A stretch of DNA of 33,126 nucleotides from a virus (IMGVR_UViG_3300022666_000061:1-33126); one strand, 5' to 3'. Shown: positions 453 through 14,031, counted from the stretch's first letter. Notes: a model not told the origin generated them from the sequence alone. Numbers and translations: made by a program.

Positions 453-1261
453 TCCTCTTGTCTTTACCCGTGCCAACCATTCAACTTTTCGAAAATGAAG
501 AGATCCCAATTGTCAATGTTGATGGTAAATATTACCTCCCTGTTCGAGCCATAGCAAAAGTCCTCGATACAGAGTCAGATGCATTGAGGAGAATAATCAC
601 CAGGAATCCTGAGTTATTCGACGGGCTTGTTATGGATGTCATGATGACCTCCATAAAAGGAGAGCGCAATACCGTTTGTTTATCCCGTGATGGTGTCCTG
701 ACATTACTGGCTACAATAGATTACAAGCGTCTACCCGATGAAAAGAAAGAAAGAGTCATCCGTTTCCGCAGGTGGATGATCGAGACAGTCGGGAAAGTTC
801 TTGACGGACAGACGCCCAGCAAACCACAGATCACAGCGGGACAAATCGCGGTTGATTACCTGAACATCGGGCATGCCATGCACACCCTCTATGGTGTCCC
901 ATTAGGCATTGCAGGTGTAGTTTCCCTGAACCTTGCCGAAGATGCATCAGGTATGGACCTCACCGCATACAAGAGAATCCTCCCACCTGCACCAGAGGTT
1001 GACACGCCATACCTCAACGCAACGCAAATAGGCGCAAGAGTCGGGCTTTCTGCCGCTGCTGTCAATCGTTTCCTCTCTATTCAGGGACTCATATACATGG
1101 GCGAGAAGGGCTGGCGCATGACGAAGGAAGGCCATGAATATGGCGGCTCTTTCCCATACGCGAGAAACGGGCATACCGATTACCAGATCAGGTGGAAGGA
1201 GTCTGTTCTCGATCTGTTCCCAGGCGGCAAACAAGCACGGTTAGAGGGGTTGGCATATTGA
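449..1261 (+). CDS. Phage antirepressor-like protein (P22 Ant-N/Bro-like N-domain plus KilAC-like C-domain)
   Basis: N-terminal 'IPIVNVDGKYYLPVRAIAKVL...TVCLSRDGVLTLL'; C-terminal 'LNATQIGARVGLSAAAVNRFL...WRMTKEGHEYG'. Confidence 0.8.
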   Translation: MILLSLPVPTIQLFENEEIPIVNVDGKYYLPVRAIAKVLDTESDALRRIITRNPELFDGLVMDVMMTSIKGERNTVCLSRDGVLTLLATIDYKRLPDEKKERVIRFRRWMIETVGKVLDGQTPSKPQITAGQIAVDYLNIGHAMHTLYGVPLGIAGVVSLNLAEDASGMDLTAYKRILPPAPEVDTPYLNATQIGARVGLSAAAVNRFLSIQGLIYMGEKGWRMTKEGHEYGGSFPYARNGHTDYQIRWKESVLDLFPGGKQARLEGLAY

Positions 1262-1887
1262 TCGCCATACCCTCAACGGTTCGATGCCCGCAGGAAATCC
1301 GTGCAGAGAACCACAAACGCACCCAATCAAGCGTATACAAGTCAAAAGCCTGGAAAGCCGCCAAAGAGAAGTTCCTGAAAGCGTTTCCCACATGTTGCTA
1401 TTGTGGTGAGCCTGCAACCGTTCCGCACCACCCGACCAGGCAGGACTACGGATCACAAGCATACCTTGACGAAATCATGGCCTGTGAGCCTGTATGTCGA
1501 GGCTGTCACCTCGGTATCGAGTCCGGCAAGCACATGTGCGCCGGTTGCGGCAAGCACTGGACGAAGTATGATCTGTGCCAGCAGTGCAATCCAAACGCCT
1601 ACCGGCAGATGAACAATGAACGCCGCAGGCAGCAAGAGGAAAGAAAAGAGGCATTCCGGCAGGAAGTCATTCGACTTATTCACGCTCACAGGAACGGGAT
1701 CTATGTCTATGTAGACGAGATGTGCCAGCTTGTAGAAGAGCACCCTAAACAATACCCGCTGCTGTCGAAGTTCAAACCGAGCGGCAAACACTATAAGATC
1801 GCAAAAACGCTTCGGACTCTCGGCGCTGAAAAAACCCGCAGGAACCACCACTGCAAGACGTGGGTGCTTCGGAGGCTGAATCTGTGA
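1258..1887 (+). CDS. HNH endonuclease with an additional Zn ribbon
   Basis: 'YKSKAWK..KEKFL...CCYCG...VPHH...VCRGCH' then CAGC..CQQC; TTG start overlaps the upstream stop (ORF track starts at 1192). Confidence 0.75.
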   Translation: MIAIPSTVRCPQEIRAENHKRTQSSVYKSKAWKAAKEKFLKAFPTCCYCGEPATVPHHPTRQDYGSQAYLDEIMACEPVCRGCHLGIESGKHMCAGCGKHWTKYDLCQQCNPNAYRQMNNERRRQQEERKEAFRQEVIRLIHAHRNGIYVYVDEMCQLVEEHPKQYPLLSKFKPSGKHYKIAKTLRTLGAEKTRRNHHCKTWVLRRLNL

Positions 1888-10192: not shown

Positions 10193-10639
10193 ATGACACA
10201 GAAACGGACGCCAAATAAACGAGATTCAGGAATCGGACAAGAAAGATCCGGTGAAAATACGAAAAGAAAGGTGGTGGGGCGTCCGAAGAAACCTATTGAT
10301 CTCGAACTCGTTGAAGATCTCGCCGGTATAATGTGCACCCACGAGGAAATAGCGCAAATCCTGAAAGTGTCCGTTTCTACGCTTGAGCACAACGAAGAGT
10401 TTTTGCAGGTGTATAAAAGAGCGCTCAACACAGCCAAATCGTCATTACGCAGGCGGCAATACCAGGCAGCAATGGACGGCAGCAATGCCCTGTTGATCTG
10501 GCTGGGGAAACAATACCTCGGACAAACAGACAAGCAGGAACGGGAAATCACCGGCAAAGACGGCGGTCCTGTGGTGCTGTCACACTTGAGCGATGACGAG
10601 GTGATCAGACGTGCTCGCGAAATCATCAGAGGAAGTTAA
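10193..10639 (+). CDS. terS: Terminase small subunit
   Basis: HTH 'CTHEEIAQILKVSVSTL'; 'LIWLGKQYLGQTDKQEREITGKDGGPV'; directly upstream of TerL. Confidence 0.85.
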   Translation: MTQKRTPNKRDSGIGQERSGENTKRKVVGRPKKPIDLELVEDLAGIMCTHEEIAQILKVSVSTLEHNEEFLQVYKRALNTAKSSLRRRQYQAAMDGSNALLIWLGKQYLGQTDKQEREITGKDGGPVVLSHLSDDEVIRRAREIIRGS

Positions 10640-12638
10640 CCTGGCAAGAGAACTTGTCTGGCGCACCGATTACGCCTGGGATAAGATCGCACACCCTGGC
10701 CAGATCCCTCCAAAAGACAAAGCCTGGTTCTGTTACTTAATGAGATCAGGTAGAGGTGGAGGCAAGACAAGAGCAGGTGCAGAGTGGGTATTACAGCGAG
10801 TCAGGGACGGCTACAAGAGCATAGCACTGATCGGTAAGAACGCTGCTGATGTCCGGGACATTATGATCGAGCTGGGTGAATCCTCGATCTGTAAGGTTGC
10901 AAGAGAAGACGAGAAGCCTATTTATGAGCCCTCAAAAAGACGGTTGACATTTCCCTCTGGTGCAGTAGCGGTTGCCTATTCAGACGAAGATCCTGATCAG
11001 CTCAGAGGACCCCAACACGACACCGCATGGGTAGACGAACTGGCGAAGTTCAAGCACCCGCAGGACACCTGGGACAACCTTCTGATGGGTTTGCGATTAG
11101 GCGACAACCCGCAGGTATTCGTCACGACAACACCGAGGCCAATACCGCTGATCCGTGACCTGCTCAACGCCAAGGACACAATAGACGTCCGGTTCTCAAC
11201 CTTCGACAACGCTGACAACCTCTCGCCGCAGTTCCTCGCCAAAGTCAGGGAAAAATATGAAGGGACAAGACTCGGAAGACAGGAACTCTACGGCGAGATC
11301 CTGGACGACAACCCAAACGCACTCTGGAAGAGAGACGTCATCGAGAACCTGCGGGTAGACACAGCACCGGGACTCGTGCGGGTAGTTGTGGGCGTTGATC
11401 CTGCTGTCTCAAGCACAGACGAATCGGCAGAGACGGGTATACTGACAGCAGGTGTAGACGCAGGCGGGCAGTATTACGTCCTGAACGATTCCTCATTACA
11501 GGGAACGCCGAATGAGTGGGCGGTGGCAGTAGTCCGGGCATTCCACGCAGCCAAAGCCGACAGAGTGATTGGGGAAGTCAACAACGGCGGTGATCTTGTT
11601 GAAGTCAACCTACGGACAGTTGACCGCAACATCCCGTTCAAGGCCGTGCACGCCAGCCGGGGAAAACTGATCCGGGCTGAACCAATCGCCGCTCTCTACG
11701 AACAGGGCAAAGTCCACCATGTTGGGACATTCCCTCAGCTTGAAGACCAGATGTGCGTATCCGGCGATACTTTGGTCGAGACAGAACATGGCCAAATACG
11801 TATTGACGAGGTGGTAATTGGAACCAAAATATGGACACGATATGGACTTTTTCCTATTTCGTGGGTGGGTCAAACAGGAGACTTGGAAGAAGTCTACCTG
11901 ATAACAACGTCTGATGATTGTAACTTATTGGCAACAGTGGGACATTTGATATATGTAGAAAACAAAGGATTTATCACAGTATCAAAATTGCAAAAAGGAG
12001 ATGTGATAAATTCATGGAAAAATATGGTCCACGCACATACTACAACGGCCATTACTTTGCAGTCGATAATAAAGGGTATTATAGAAATAAGCGAGCGGGT
12101 GGGTTGTTACATAGAATCATTTGGGAAAGCATACACGGCCCTATTCCAAAAGGATTCCTTATTCATCATAAGGACGGGAACCCACTCAACAACGACATCA
12201 ACAACCTCGAAATTAAAACCGTGTCTCAACACAAATTCACACATCCTGGGGGATTTGCCACTTGGGAGCCTGGTTACAGAGGGAAGAAAACTGAAGAGAT
12301 GTGGAGTAAAAGAAAGCCTGAAAAGAAAATTTGCATCTCCTGTGGGGCTATATTCGAATCAACAGGGATGCGAGCAAAATTCTGCACAACAAAATGCCGG
12401 CGCCGTTATTATTACAAGTGTGAAAAAGAGCGCCAAAAAAATACCTGTTTTTAATTTAAAAGTGGACGGCGTCCCAGAGTTTTATGCCAATGGCATACTC
12501 GTCCACAATTGCGAGTGGGTCCCGGGGGAAAAGAGCCCTGACCGGATGGACGCTCTTGTCTGGGCGCTGACTGAACTGTCCAGCCAGCCAGGGATATCCG
12601 GTGTAACCTACGCAGTTGTAGGTAAACGGAGGTACTGA
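10611..12638 (+). CDS. terL: Terminase large subunit precursor containing an intein (423 aa after splicing)
   Basis: Walker A 'GRGGGKT', Walker B 'AWVDE', 'VTTTP', nuclease 'VVGVDPA' and 'SPDRMDA'; GAGGTGAT RBS before GTG. Confidence 0.96.
   Translation: MLAKSSEEVNLARELVWRTDYAWDKIAHPGQIPPKDKAWFCYLMRSGRGGGKTRAGAEWVLQRVRDGYKSIALIGKNAADVRDIMIELGESSICKVAREDEKPIYEPSKRRLTFPSGAVAVAYSDEDPDQLRGPQHDTAWVDELAKFKHPQDTWDNLLMGLRLGDNPQVFVTTTPRPIPLIRDLLNAKDTIDVRFSTFDNADNLSPQFLAKVREKYEGTRLGRQELYGEILDDNPNALWKRDVIENLRVDTAPGLVRVVVGVDPAVSSTDESAETGILTAGVDAGGQYYVLNDSSLQGTPNEWAVAVVRAFHAAKADRVIGEVNNGGDLVEVNLRTVDRNIPFKAVHASRGKLIRAEPIAALYEQGKVHHVGTFPQLEDQMCVSGDTLVETEHGQIRIDEVVIGTKIWTRYGLFPISWVGQTGDLEEVYLITTSDDCNLLATVGHLIYVENKGFITVSKLQKGDVINSWKNMVHAHTTTAITLQSIIKGIIEISERVGCYIESFGKAYTALFQKDSLFIIRTGTHSTTTSTTSKLKPCLNTNSHILGDLPLGSLVTEGRKLKRCGVKESLKRKFASPVGLYSNQQGCEQNSAQQNAGAVIITSVKKSAKKIPVFNLKVDGVPEFYANGILVHNCEWVPGEKSPDRMDALVWALTELSSQPGISGVTYAVVGKRRY
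11754..12509 (+). mobile_element. Intein (252 aa) in the TerL nuclease domain
   Basis: Block A 'CVSGDTLVET', block B 'LLATVGHLIYV', block F 'VFNLKVDGVPEFYANGILV', terminal HN followed by +1 Cys; visibly more AT-rich than the flanks. Confidence 0.95.
12014..12454 (+). CDS. HNH homing endonuclease nested out of frame inside the intein
   Basis: 'LLHRIIWESIHGPIPKGFLIHHKDGNPLNNDINNLEIKTVSQHKFTH' plus C-terminal CISC...FCTTKC Zn finger; frame -1 relative to the intein; GGAGATGTGAT RBS-like sequence upstream. Confidence 0.9.
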   Translation: MEKYGPRTYYNGHYFAVDNKGYYRNKRAGGLLHRIIWESIHGPIPKGFLIHHKDGNPLNNDINNLEIKTVSQHKFTHPGGFATWEPGYRGKKTEEMWSKRKPEKKICISCGAIFESTGMRAKFCTTKCRRRYYYKCEKERQKNTCF

Positions 12639-12806
12639 ATGTCAACGGATGCATTATGCGAAAATATAAATTGTCGTTTCTTTCGCGATTACGATCACGA
12701 TTGTGCGTTTAAAATAGTGTTGATTGGCAAAGACGGTTTATGCAGGATGTTCGAGAAGATACCCGCTTCAAAGAGTTCAGAAGTCGAGGTTTTAAAAAAT
12801 GCTTGA
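12639..12806 (+). CDS. Small Cys-rich protein (DUF1540-like, 55 aa)
   Basis: 'LCENINCRFF...CAFKIVLIGKDGLCRMFE'; GGAGGT RBS. Confidence 0.6.
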   Translation: MSTDALCENINCRFFRDYDHDCAFKIVLIGKDGLCRMFEKIPASKSSEVEVLKNA

Positions 12807-14031
12807 AGGACTGAAACGATTACTGGCGCCACCCGTAGTGGCAACACAGCCTCTTAAATGCGTTGTCGAAGTATCCGGGAAAAGCCCGGAATATTTTGGT
12901 AAGAAAGAGAGAACGACGGCACAACTGGAAGCCTACCAGAACGTCTATGACTCTGGTGGCCCTGCTACTGAAGCGATCGACTGTTACCCGCTCTTTATGC
13001 TGTCGAACGGTTGGCGATTAGAGGGCGACGAGAACGCAATCCCGAGAGTGCAGGAATTCCTGGACGGTGCGAATCACGAAGAGATCTTCTGGGAACTGAT
13101 CACCGAGGCTCTTGTCAAAGGCGACGGGTTCGCTGAGCTGGCACTGACCCGAGTCGGAAACGCCCCTGCTAAAATCGTCCCTCGAGACGCCGCCAAATTC
13201 GAAGTCCGGCAGGATCAGTACGGAACGATCACCGGGTATGAGTACAACCTCTCATCCGGCTCAATGGGCGAAAAAAAGATCGTCAACCTCGAACCGTTCC
13301 GGGTGCTGCACGTCAAGTTGTTCTCCCGTCCCGGAAGTGTCTACGGATCAAGCCTCGTCAAGCGGGCTTACGACGACATAATAAGGGATGCCAAGGTAGC
13401 CGAGGGAACAAGCGCTGCAATCGAGAGGCACGGATACCCGAGAGGTCATTGTCAGGTAGGTGATCCGACACTTGGCACAGCCGTCCCGGATTCAGCGCTG
13501 AAAGACATTGAAACGAAACTCTCCGAACTGAAACCAAAACACGATTTCGTGACGCAATGGTTCGTCAAATTCACAAGTCTGGATCAGGGCGGTGCCGGGC
13601 CGGTAGATCTGTACTCAGCCGTCAGCACCAGGAGAATGGCGGCGGCCATCGGAGTCCCTGGTGAGTTGATGGGATTCCGTGAGGGGACCACTGACAACAC
13701 CGCTGTCAGCCGTATCAGCGTGTTCATGGGCAAGATCCAGACAATGCAAAGACGGTTTGCCGCTGCACTAAACGAGCAGGTAATCGACAGGATCACAGGG
13801 AAACCTGGACTCGTCTGGATCGTGTTCAATAGCCCGAACCCTGAAGGCGAAGCAACGCGGGCACAGTGGATCACGCAGGTCATGGGCGCAACACCCGGCG
13901 ACCCGTTCAGCATACTGCCGCAGGGCTGGGTCCAGGAACAGTTTGGCGTTGCTGATTACGAGGAGGCTGATCTCTACGCAGACGATAATACAGAAAAAGG
14001 AACCGAAGACGCGACGGTCGAAACTGAATAA
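12799..14031 (+). CDS. Portal protein
   Basis: Position after TerL; 'LVKGDGFAE', 'VLHVKL...VYGSS', 'AAAIGVPGELMG'. Confidence 0.9.
   Translation: MLEGLKRLLAPPVVATQPLKCVVEVSGKSPEYFGKKERTTAQLEAYQNVYDSGGPATEAIDCYPLFMLSNGWRLEGDENAIPRVQEFLDGANHEEIFWELITEALVKGDGFAELALTRVGNAPAKIVPRDAAKFEVRQDQYGTITGYEYNLSSGSMGEKKIVNLEPFRVLHVKLFSRPGSVYGSSLVKRAYDDIIRDAKVAEGTSAAIERHGYPRGHCQVGDPTLGTAVPDSALKDIETKLSELKPKHDFVTQWFVKFTSLDQGGAGPVDLYSAVSTRRMAAAIGVPGELMGFREGTTDNTAVSRISVFMGKIQTMQRRFAAALNEQVIDRITGKPGLVWIVFNSPNPEGEATRAQWITQVMGATPGDPFSILPQGWVQEQFGVADYEEADLYADDNTEKGTEDATVETE

What the first reader, a model, noticed from the sequence alone, without database searches (positions are those of the whole stretch)
11754..12509. 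Intein whose homing endonuclease is a separate gene overprinted in another reading frame
Seen: TerL is interrupted by a 252-aa intein with intact splicing motifs (Cys1, TxxH, terminal HN, +1 Cys). Its central ~147 codons read as featureless S/T/I/K-rich sequence in the intein frame, with no LAGLIDADG or HNH motif. The same bases in the -1 frame (12014-12454) encode a complete HNH endonuclease plus Zn finger with its own ATG and TAA, wholly inside the intein. The intein frame stays stop-free across 441 AT-rich bases. Established: inteins normally carry the homing endonuclease as an in-frame domain between splicing blocks B and F, which is exactly where this ORF lies. Inference: this is a dual-coding mobile element in which a free-standing HNH gene invaded a mini-intein. 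The off-frame translation is removed by protein splicing and the nuclease is made as an independent protein. I know of no named class like this but cannot check the literature. Ordinary gene callers would miss the nested gene.
Basis: partly seen in the sequence, partly recalled or inferred. Interest (0 to 1): 0.93.

Follow-up and report, generated by a model that had tools for sequence, protein, structure and literature searches.

The report
Spreading intein with hidden nuclease gene
A virus's DNA-packaging gene carries a predicted self-splicing insert (an intein) whose DNA, read one base out of step, also encodes an intact gene for a predicted DNA-nicking enzyme that likely copies the insert into related viruses; the two-frame layout is real and recurs in dozens of other viruses, but layouts of this kind have been reported before.

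Summary
Confirmed. terL (10611-12638) holds a 252-aa intein (11754-12509), and a 146-aa HNH_3 + zinc-finger gene (12014-12454) lies inside it in the -1 frame. It is no assembly error: contigs from four other studies carry the intein without indels.

Selection acts on the nuclease frame. Against two same-site relatives it keeps 70-71% amino-acid identity (pN/pS 0.23-0.27); the intein frame keeps 28-44% (1.2-1.5) but avoids stops.

It has likely homed recently. One contig has 0 differences in the 756-nt intein but 19 in 172 flanking bases, and exact empty alleles occur in 4 of 7 runs laid.

It belongs to a large family: 62 of 68 distinct IMG/VR inteins with the same C-terminal motif, and 12 of 12 at this site, carry the -1 HNH_3.

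The kind is published: Brucella phage terL (2015, +1 frame, other HNH type), actinophages (2025) and cyanobacterial dnaX (2026). I found no paper on this family. This scan noted the layout on at least 10 other genomes. The host is likely a methanogen. Splicing, expression and nicking are untested.

The parts
10193..10639 (+). terminase small subunit (context)
   Evidence: PHROG 309, E 1.5e-9
10611..12638 (+). terL precursor ORF, 675 aa (exact start codon not fixed)
   Evidence: Terminase_6N E 1.9e-25, Terminase_6C E 1.1e-9
10611..11753 (+). N-extein, ends ...FPQLEDQM
   Evidence: the spliced extein is 66-79% identical to its eight closest intein-free terL relatives
11730..11753 (+). upstream half of the likely homing site; no difference listed here among the alleles laid, while five third positions at 11714-11729 vary
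   Evidence: table 3; role in recognition is inferred
11754..12509 (+). intein, 252 aa, class-1-like (Cys1, T61xxH64, terminal His-Asn, +1 Cys)
   Evidence: empty alleles skip exactly these 756 bases
11754..12013 (+). N-terminal splicing region (blocks A and B)
   Evidence: pLDDT 90-98; pN/pS 0.39-0.53 in the intein frame
11946..11953 (+). archaeal TATA-like octamer 68 nt before the nested ATG, in the H-L-I-Y codons of block B (weak)
   Evidence: 7 of 8 matches to a recalled consensus; same place in L124/L294 and L297; no chance control run
11996..12007 (+). Shine-Dalgarno-like site AGGAGATGTGAT, 6 nt before the nested ATG, in the K-G-D-V-I codons
   Evidence: duplex energy -11.2 kcal/mol; 15 other gene starts of the window range from +0.9 to -12.0
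12014..12454 (+). nested gene in the -1 frame: HNH_3 nuclease, 146 aa
   Evidence: model pLDDT 89.5; best PDB match I-HmuI 1u3e
12107..12232 (+). HNH core (residues 32-73); H51, H52, N64 and H73 invariant in 52 aligned relatives
12332..12397 (+). C107xxC110...C124xxxC128 zinc-finger motif of the nuclease
   Evidence: three Cys invariant and one nearly so in 52 sequences; weak profile matches to FCS-type fingers
12441..12509 (+). C-terminal splicing region (blocks F and G); the nested TAA stop is formed by the F-N codons of V-F-N-L
   Evidence: pN/pS 0.08-0.19
12510..12638 (+). C-extein, begins CEWVPGEKSPDRMDALVW
12799..14031 (+). portal protein (context; host clue)

Best explanation
The terL gene carries an intein whose central linker also encodes an HNH nuclease gene in the -1 frame; the intein is predicted to splice the off-frame linker out of the terminase, and the nuclease is likely made as a separate protein that would nick intein-free terL copies so that repair likely copies the whole insert into them. 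Shown: both frames, their domains, purifying selection on the nuclease frame, stop avoidance in the intein frame, empty alleles beside occupied ones, and an identical intein in divergent flanks. Inferred: splicing, translation from the nested ATG through the Shine-Dalgarno-like site in the intein's K-G-D-V-I codons, an internal promoter, nicking near the junction, and a methanogen host. The linker needs only to stay free of stops. In this frame pair that means never using NTA codons before A or G, or NTG codons before A, which synonymous changes nearly always allow. When homing stops, the nuclease decays and is deleted in frame, leaving a mini-intein.
For: Selection: window vs L124/L294 and vs L297 over 140 overlap codons gives 70% and 71% identity, pN/pS 0.23 and 0.27 in the HNH frame; 28% and 44%, pN/pS 1.49 and 1.21 in the intein frame; mismatches sit at the HNH third position (0.66 and 0.51 vs 0.18-0.24). 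In a 17-member group at another site the HNH frame is better conserved in 136 of 136 pairs, which are not independent. The one polymorphism listed inside the intein (12271 T>C, runs X4 and X7) is silent in the HNH frame and Leu to Pro in the intein frame. Homing: an X3 contig over 11712-12639 has 19 differences, 3 upstream, 16 downstream and none in the intein. The exact empty joint 11753-12510 is seen in X3, X4, X7 and X10, 4 of 7 runs laid. The site is empty in 80 of 80 viral and 79 of 80 genome terL relatives (1 not found), and occupied in 12 distinct elements, all with a -1 HNH_3. Family: 62 of 68. Own start: 59 of 62 nested ORFs start at ATG at intein codon 66-94, 38 of 62 within 5 codons after a stop in their own frame; 8 of 62 have a slippery heptamer near the start and the window has none. 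Fold: I-HmuI is the best match by profile (E 5e-4) and by structure (E 5e-3). Decay series: L142 (internal stop), L096 and L109 (HNH core lost), L114, L118 and L145 (minis).
Against: No expression, splicing or cleavage data. The one possible RNA run laid (X2, probably DNA) does not cover the intein. The intein scores below Pfam's curated cut-offs, and a 120-aa predicted-disordered linker might slow splicing. The structural match to I-HmuI is weak (no Foldseek hit at E<=0.001, TM 0.41). In the window the -1 frame is open for 30 codons upstream of the ATG, so entry by frameshift is not excluded by sequence. Synonymous sites are near saturation, so the pN/pS ratios are rough. Identical intein in divergent flanks could also arise by ordinary recombination. 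The host rests on 35-40% identity hits in MAG contigs, with no bacterial control.
Confidence: 0.8

Rival explanations
1. The nested HNH has been domesticated and works for the virus, as a packaging cofactor of terminase or as a weapon against co-infecting viruses, and the intein persists for that reason.
For: PMC4422536 speculates on a terminase-associated role for the brucellaphage nested HNH. The HNH is under purifying selection.
Against: Close relatives and co-occurring alleles lack it. The same module sits at many different sites and decays to minis. An identical intein in divergent flanks points to movement.
Confidence: 0.08
2. The nuclease is made by a programmed -1 ribosomal frameshift from the terL frame, as a fusion behind the N-extein and the N-terminal splicing region, not from its own start.
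For: In the window the -1 frame is open from 11924, 30 codons before the ATG, across an A-rich run.
Against: In the two closest relatives the -1 frame has a stop 1 and 3 codons before the ATG. 38 of 62 family members have such a stop within 5 codons. The window has no X XXY YYZ heptamer and only 8 of 62 members do. The Shine-Dalgarno-like site is strong.
Confidence: 0.07
3. An ordinary in-frame HNH intein with two compensating indels (assembly error or recent mutation), or a dead nuclease pseudogene.
For: In-frame HNH inteins exist (cited in bioRxiv 10.1101/2025.01.02.630785).
Against: No gaps in contigs of X3, X4, X7 and X12, from four other studies. The same frame is used in 62 of 68 and 12 of 12 relatives. 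Catalytic residues are intact and under selection.
Confidence: 0.03
4. The insert is removed at the RNA level, as an intron carrying an HNH ORF, and the protein-splicing motifs are relics.
For: The GenBank note for the Brucella phage Tb HNH reads 'intron-encoded'.
Against: No Rfam match in the window at gathering scores. Both splicing regions are under purifying selection in the intein frame and stops are avoided, which an intron would not need.
Confidence: 0.02

Closest known systems
Brucella phage Tb terL intein with out-of-frame HNH (JN939331 ORF07/ORF08; PMC4422536)
   Same: Intein in TerL with a separately annotated HNH gene nested on the same strand in another frame.
   Different: Tb uses the +1 frame and a PF01844-type HNH placed after its zinc ribbons, and its intein lies 174 residues into TerL. 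Here the frame is -1, the nuclease is HNH_3 with the finger behind it, and the site is 42 residues from the C-terminus. Tb is a long, unplaced branch in my quick tree.
Actinobacteriophage non-canonical inteins (bioRxiv 10.1101/2025.01.02.630785): endonuclease VII-like in frame 3, antisense LAGLIDADG, antisense Vsr-like
   Same: Same-strand frame-3 nuclease inside the intein linker, unstructured in-frame translation, often in TerL, and the same invasion model.
   Different: The nuclease type differs; their HNH inteins are in frame. They call these layouts rare, whereas this family has an estimated 830 stored stretches in IMG/VR with one motif.
Cyanobacterial dnaX intein with +2 ORF LAGLIDADG (bioRxiv 10.64898/2026.09.14.751524)
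   Same: +2 frame, Shine-Dalgarno motifs, frame-dependent dN/dS, and coexistence of empty, mini and full alleles.
   Different: LAGLIDADG nuclease, cellular host gene, one insertion site.
ShiLan domain (PMC11855218)
   Same: HNH with zinc fingers in the third frame of a stop-free insert in a phage gene, with a patchy distribution.
   Different: It has no splicing domain, so the off-frame translation is thought to stay in the methylase.
I-HmuI (PDB 1u3e), intron-encoded HNH homing endonuclease
   Same: Best PDB match for the nested protein's N-terminal and HNH region.
   Different: 22% identity; the nested protein ends in a Cys4 finger with no counterpart in that match. That I-HmuI nicks one strand is recalled.

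Membership tests
Class 1 intein | Cys/Ser1, block B TxxH, terminal His-Asn, +1 Cys/Ser/Thr (definition recalled) | tested here: met
Class 1 intein | Hint fold | tested here: met
   predicted model; Pfam scores are below the curated cut-off
Class 1 intein | precise in-frame insertion relative to empty alleles | tested here: met
   joint skips 756 nt
Class 1 intein | self-catalysed protein splicing | not testable with these tools
   needs a reporter assay
Canonical bifunctional intein | endonuclease domain in frame with the splicing domain | tested here: not met
   no HNH or LAGLIDADG hit listed for 65 of 65 intein-frame translations (only the best 5 families shown for five of them)
Intein with out-of-frame homing endonuclease (kind described 2015, 2025, 2026) | endonuclease ORF inside the intein linker in another frame, host frame open | tested here: met
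Intein with out-of-frame homing endonuclease (kind described 2015, 2025, 2026) | purifying selection on the alternative frame | tested here: met
Intein with out-of-frame homing endonuclease (kind described 2015, 2025, 2026) | patchy distribution and signs of transfer | tested here: met
Endonuclease VII-like frame-3 inteins of actinophages | endonuclease VII-like nuclease | tested here: not met
   only HNH_3 is hit in Pfam at E<=0.05; their sequences were not compared directly
Brucella phage Tb-type element | +1 frame; PF01844 HNH behind zinc ribbons | tested here: not met
Brucella phage Tb-type element | common descent of the splicing domains | tested here: inconclusive
   95-column quick tree, Tb on a long branch
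HNH homing endonuclease (I-HmuI-like) | HNH_3 core with catalytic His, Asn and metal-binding His | tested here: met
HNH homing endonuclease (I-HmuI-like) | site-specific nicking of the empty allele | not testable with these tools
   needs a biochemical assay

The most novel reading that the evidence does not exclude
A large, undescribed and actively homing intein family in which the conserved splicing-domain codons double as promoter, ribosome-binding site, start and stop of a separate nuclease gene, re-tuned to the host domain. Many members have a sigma-70-type TANNNT box 5-7 nt before the ATG (16 of 40 late-start members, 7.1 expected). This likely methanogen-virus lineage has an archaeal TATA-like box plus a strong Shine-Dalgarno site. 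Off-frame coding would then be a stable, common intein design that uncouples nuclease expression from the late host gene, not a rare transition state.
Probability: 0.35. Interest if true: 0.72.

Novelty: new variant of a known kind. Interest (0 to 1): 0.52.

Why it matters
Published work treats off-frame intein endonucleases as rare. Here one intein clade carries the same -1 HNH_3 gene at dozens of flanking contexts, so many phage inteins filed as 'degenerate' or 'without endonuclease' are likely fully mobile and are missed by gene callers (two GenBank examples). This locus adds what the brucellaphage and actinophage reports lack: a population snapshot of likely recent homing, with the empty target known to the base, which makes a nicking and homing assay straightforward. 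It also gives a natural test of how a 440-nt dual-coding region is maintained, and of whether homing endonucleases entered inteins as free genes.

Tried and rejected
tblastn of the window intein against GenBank phages: no match. phmmer of the HNH alone against PDB: no match. Rfam on the window: 0 matches. Sigma-70 scan of 11700-12560: 3 sites against 1.7 expected, none placed for the nested gene. TANNNT at 12-20 nt in the early-start group: 16 of 22 against 12.9 expected, not convincing. The splicing-domain tree was only the quick version on 95 columns, with most forks open; I draw no order of events from it. L203 was first scanned in the wrong frame (no hit) and then in the -1 frame (hit). 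X2 and X10 have no contig over the intein. terL hits in genomes were mostly Alphaproteobacteria at 43-59% and do not identify the host. Literature searches with no further prior art. Supplements of the two bioRxiv preprints were closed and may list HNH members of this family.

Full report
Observation. The window is a 33-kb linear virus record with terS, terL, portal, capsid, tail and tape-measure genes. terL (10611-12638) is interrupted at 11754-12509 by 252 codons with Cys1, T61xxH64, terminal His-Asn and +1 Cys. Pfam gives Intein_splicing E 2.3e-7, below the curated cut-off. The predicted model has a confident Hint fold around a low-confidence linker at residues 91-210 and matches solved inteins. 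The -1 frame holds ATG 12014 to TAA 12454, a 146-aa HNH_3 protein (E 3.8e-17) with a Cys4 finger. Its model has pLDDT 89.5, and I-HmuI is the best though weak PDB match.

Not an artefact. Twenty public runs hold part of terL. I laid 7 of them. X1 may be the source. Single contigs of X3 and X4 span the whole intein, and X7 and X12 cover most of it in pieces; none has a gap. These four runs come from four other studies. X2 and X10 do not cover the intein.

Signs of recent homing. The X3 contig over 11712-12639 differs from the window at 19 places: 3 in 42 upstream bases, 16 in 130 downstream bases and none in the 756-nt intein. In X12 and X7 the placed differences of the junction-spanning contigs also fall in the exteins (3 of 9 in X12 and 1 of 4 in the upstream X7 contig were not placed). 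The exact empty joint 11753-12510 is present in X3, X7 and X10, and with only 24 bases on one side in X4. The only listed change inside the intein, 12271 T>C in X4 and X7, is silent for the nuclease and Leu to Pro for the linker (read from the sequence). Among the 80 best viral and 80 best genome terL relatives, 159 have the site empty and 1 could not be read. A targeted pattern found 16 loci, 12 distinct, with an intein at this site; all 12 carry a -1 HNH_3 (one is cut by a contig end, and L294 is the same element as L124). Their N-terminal regions share a G-[YH]-[YF]-R...LLHR motif, which fits either site-specific recognition or shared descent.

Selection by frame. Against L124/L294 and L297 the overlap keeps 70-71% identity in the HNH frame (pN/pS 0.23, 0.27) and 28-44% in the intein frame (1.49, 1.21). 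Both splicing regions and the exteins are under purifying selection in the terL frame. In a 17-member group at another site pN/pS is 0.46 versus 1.0. Across 62 nested ORFs the intein frame has 0 stops, against 372 expected by synonymous resampling and 271 by codon shuffling; the third frame has 1097 against 991. NTA before a purine and NTG before A never occur. That zero is partly by selection of my set, but of 80 loci with flanks only one (L158) had the frame broken for a reason other than a contig end.

The family. A pattern for the intein's C-terminal motif matched an estimated 830 stored stretches in IMG/VR; 119 loci were returned, 80 with flanks. I dropped 5 duplicates, 6 loci cut by contig ends and L158; L159 is the same contig as L001 and was counted once. 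That leaves 68 distinct complete inteins. Of these 62 have a -1 HNH_3 (59, 3), 2 have lost the HNH core, 3 are minis and 1 has an antisense Vsr-like ORF. The figure describes one clade chosen by my motif, not all inteins. They sit in many flanking contexts; I did not classify all host genes. L114 is an in-frame deletion derivative of an L142-like element whose HNH has an internal stop. Tetrasphaera phage TJE1 and Rhodobacteraceae phage LS06-2018-MD07 carry the same nested gene with only terL annotated.

How the nuclease is likely expressed. All 62 nested ORFs start at intein codon 66-94 (59 ATG; I set about ten starts by hand) and end inside the intein, 60 of them 12-27 codons before its end. 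The stop is often formed by the [YF]-[ND] codons of block F. In the window a Shine-Dalgarno-like site scores as well as the best gene starts. A TATA-like octamer sits at -68 in the window and in its two closest relatives; this has no chance control and the consensus is recalled. Sixteen of 40 late-start members have TANNNT 5-7 nt before the ATG, against 7.1 expected. A frameshift route is less likely. None of this shows expression.

Host. The only named portal homologue is from a Methanothrix MAG (40%). A Methanoregula MAG contig carries related terL, portal and capsid genes, and 4 of 301 genomes of that class match the capsid. Holders are wastewater, sludge, digester and biofilm samples. A methanogen host is likely but not shown.

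Comparison with what is known. PMC4422536 (passages read) states that an out-of-frame, intein-encoded HNH lies within terL in all annotated brucellaphages. I checked the record: +1 frame and a different HNH architecture. bioRxiv 10.1101/2025.01.02.630785 (passages and sections 8 and 15) reports frame-3 endonuclease VII-like and antisense nucleases in inteins, with the invasion model. bioRxiv 10.64898/2026.09.14.751524 (parts 1-3 of 4) reports a +2 LAGLIDADG in dnaX with frame-wise dN/dS. PMC11855218 (parts 1-4 of 6) describes an off-frame HNH without a splicing domain. Seven searches found no paper on a -1 HNH_3 intein family. The library lacks most subscription papers, and the preprints' supplements were closed. 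This scan's notes record the same layout on at least 10 other genomes, two of them archaeal; they led me to the brucellaphage paper.

Verdict. The feature is real, under selection and likely mobile now. It works like a homing intein with its nuclease moved to a second frame. The kind is known; the nuclease type, frame and family size differ from the published cases, so I rate it a new variant of a known kind, interest 0.52.

Noticed in passing
window 12639-12806: A 55-aa Cys-rich ORF between terL and portal is absent from two X3 contigs (joints 12637-12795 and 12637-12796): a recent insertion or a polymorphic gene.
   Followed up: no
window 12549 and 11692 (loose ends); P0002: Related viruses appear to carry inteins at two more terL sites: about 13 codons downstream (an intein C-end joined to DALVW in X2; P0002 likewise, and its linker reads like an off-frame HNH), and about 17 codons upstream (YEQ followed by CVAMGT in X3).
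   Followed up: no
window 1192-1887: A second, free-standing HNH-like ORF (PHROG 589, E 2.4e-6) overlapping the end of an antirepressor-like gene (449-1261).
   Followed up: no
L148:1352-2533: An intein with the same C-terminal motif that carries an antisense Vsr/DUF559 ORF of 338 aa instead of the -1 HNH: the linker has been captured by a second nuclease type.
   Followed up: partly
L114:2159-2533 and L142:2503-3399: Near-identical splicing domains at one site: L142 has an HNH with an internal stop, and L114 is an in-frame deletion joining the HNH's first codons to its tail.
   Followed up: yes
L145: A terL with two inteins in tandem: a longer upstream one and a 133-aa mini of this clade.
   Followed up: no
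L204:1215-3338 (Vibrio phage 1.266.O): An intein in a Mu gpF-like head protein with no -1 HNH; its linker may hold an antisense ORF (antisense frames not read).
   Followed up: no
L158: An intein C-terminal end and C-extein with unrelated DNA upstream: a remnant, rearrangement or assembly chimera.
   Followed up: no
L293, L295, L298, L299, L302-L304, L306, L308: Same-site elements whose -1 ORF has an extra N-terminal CxCxxC motif that overlaps the intein's N-terminal splicing region, so dual coding extends into the folded Hint domain.
   Followed up: no
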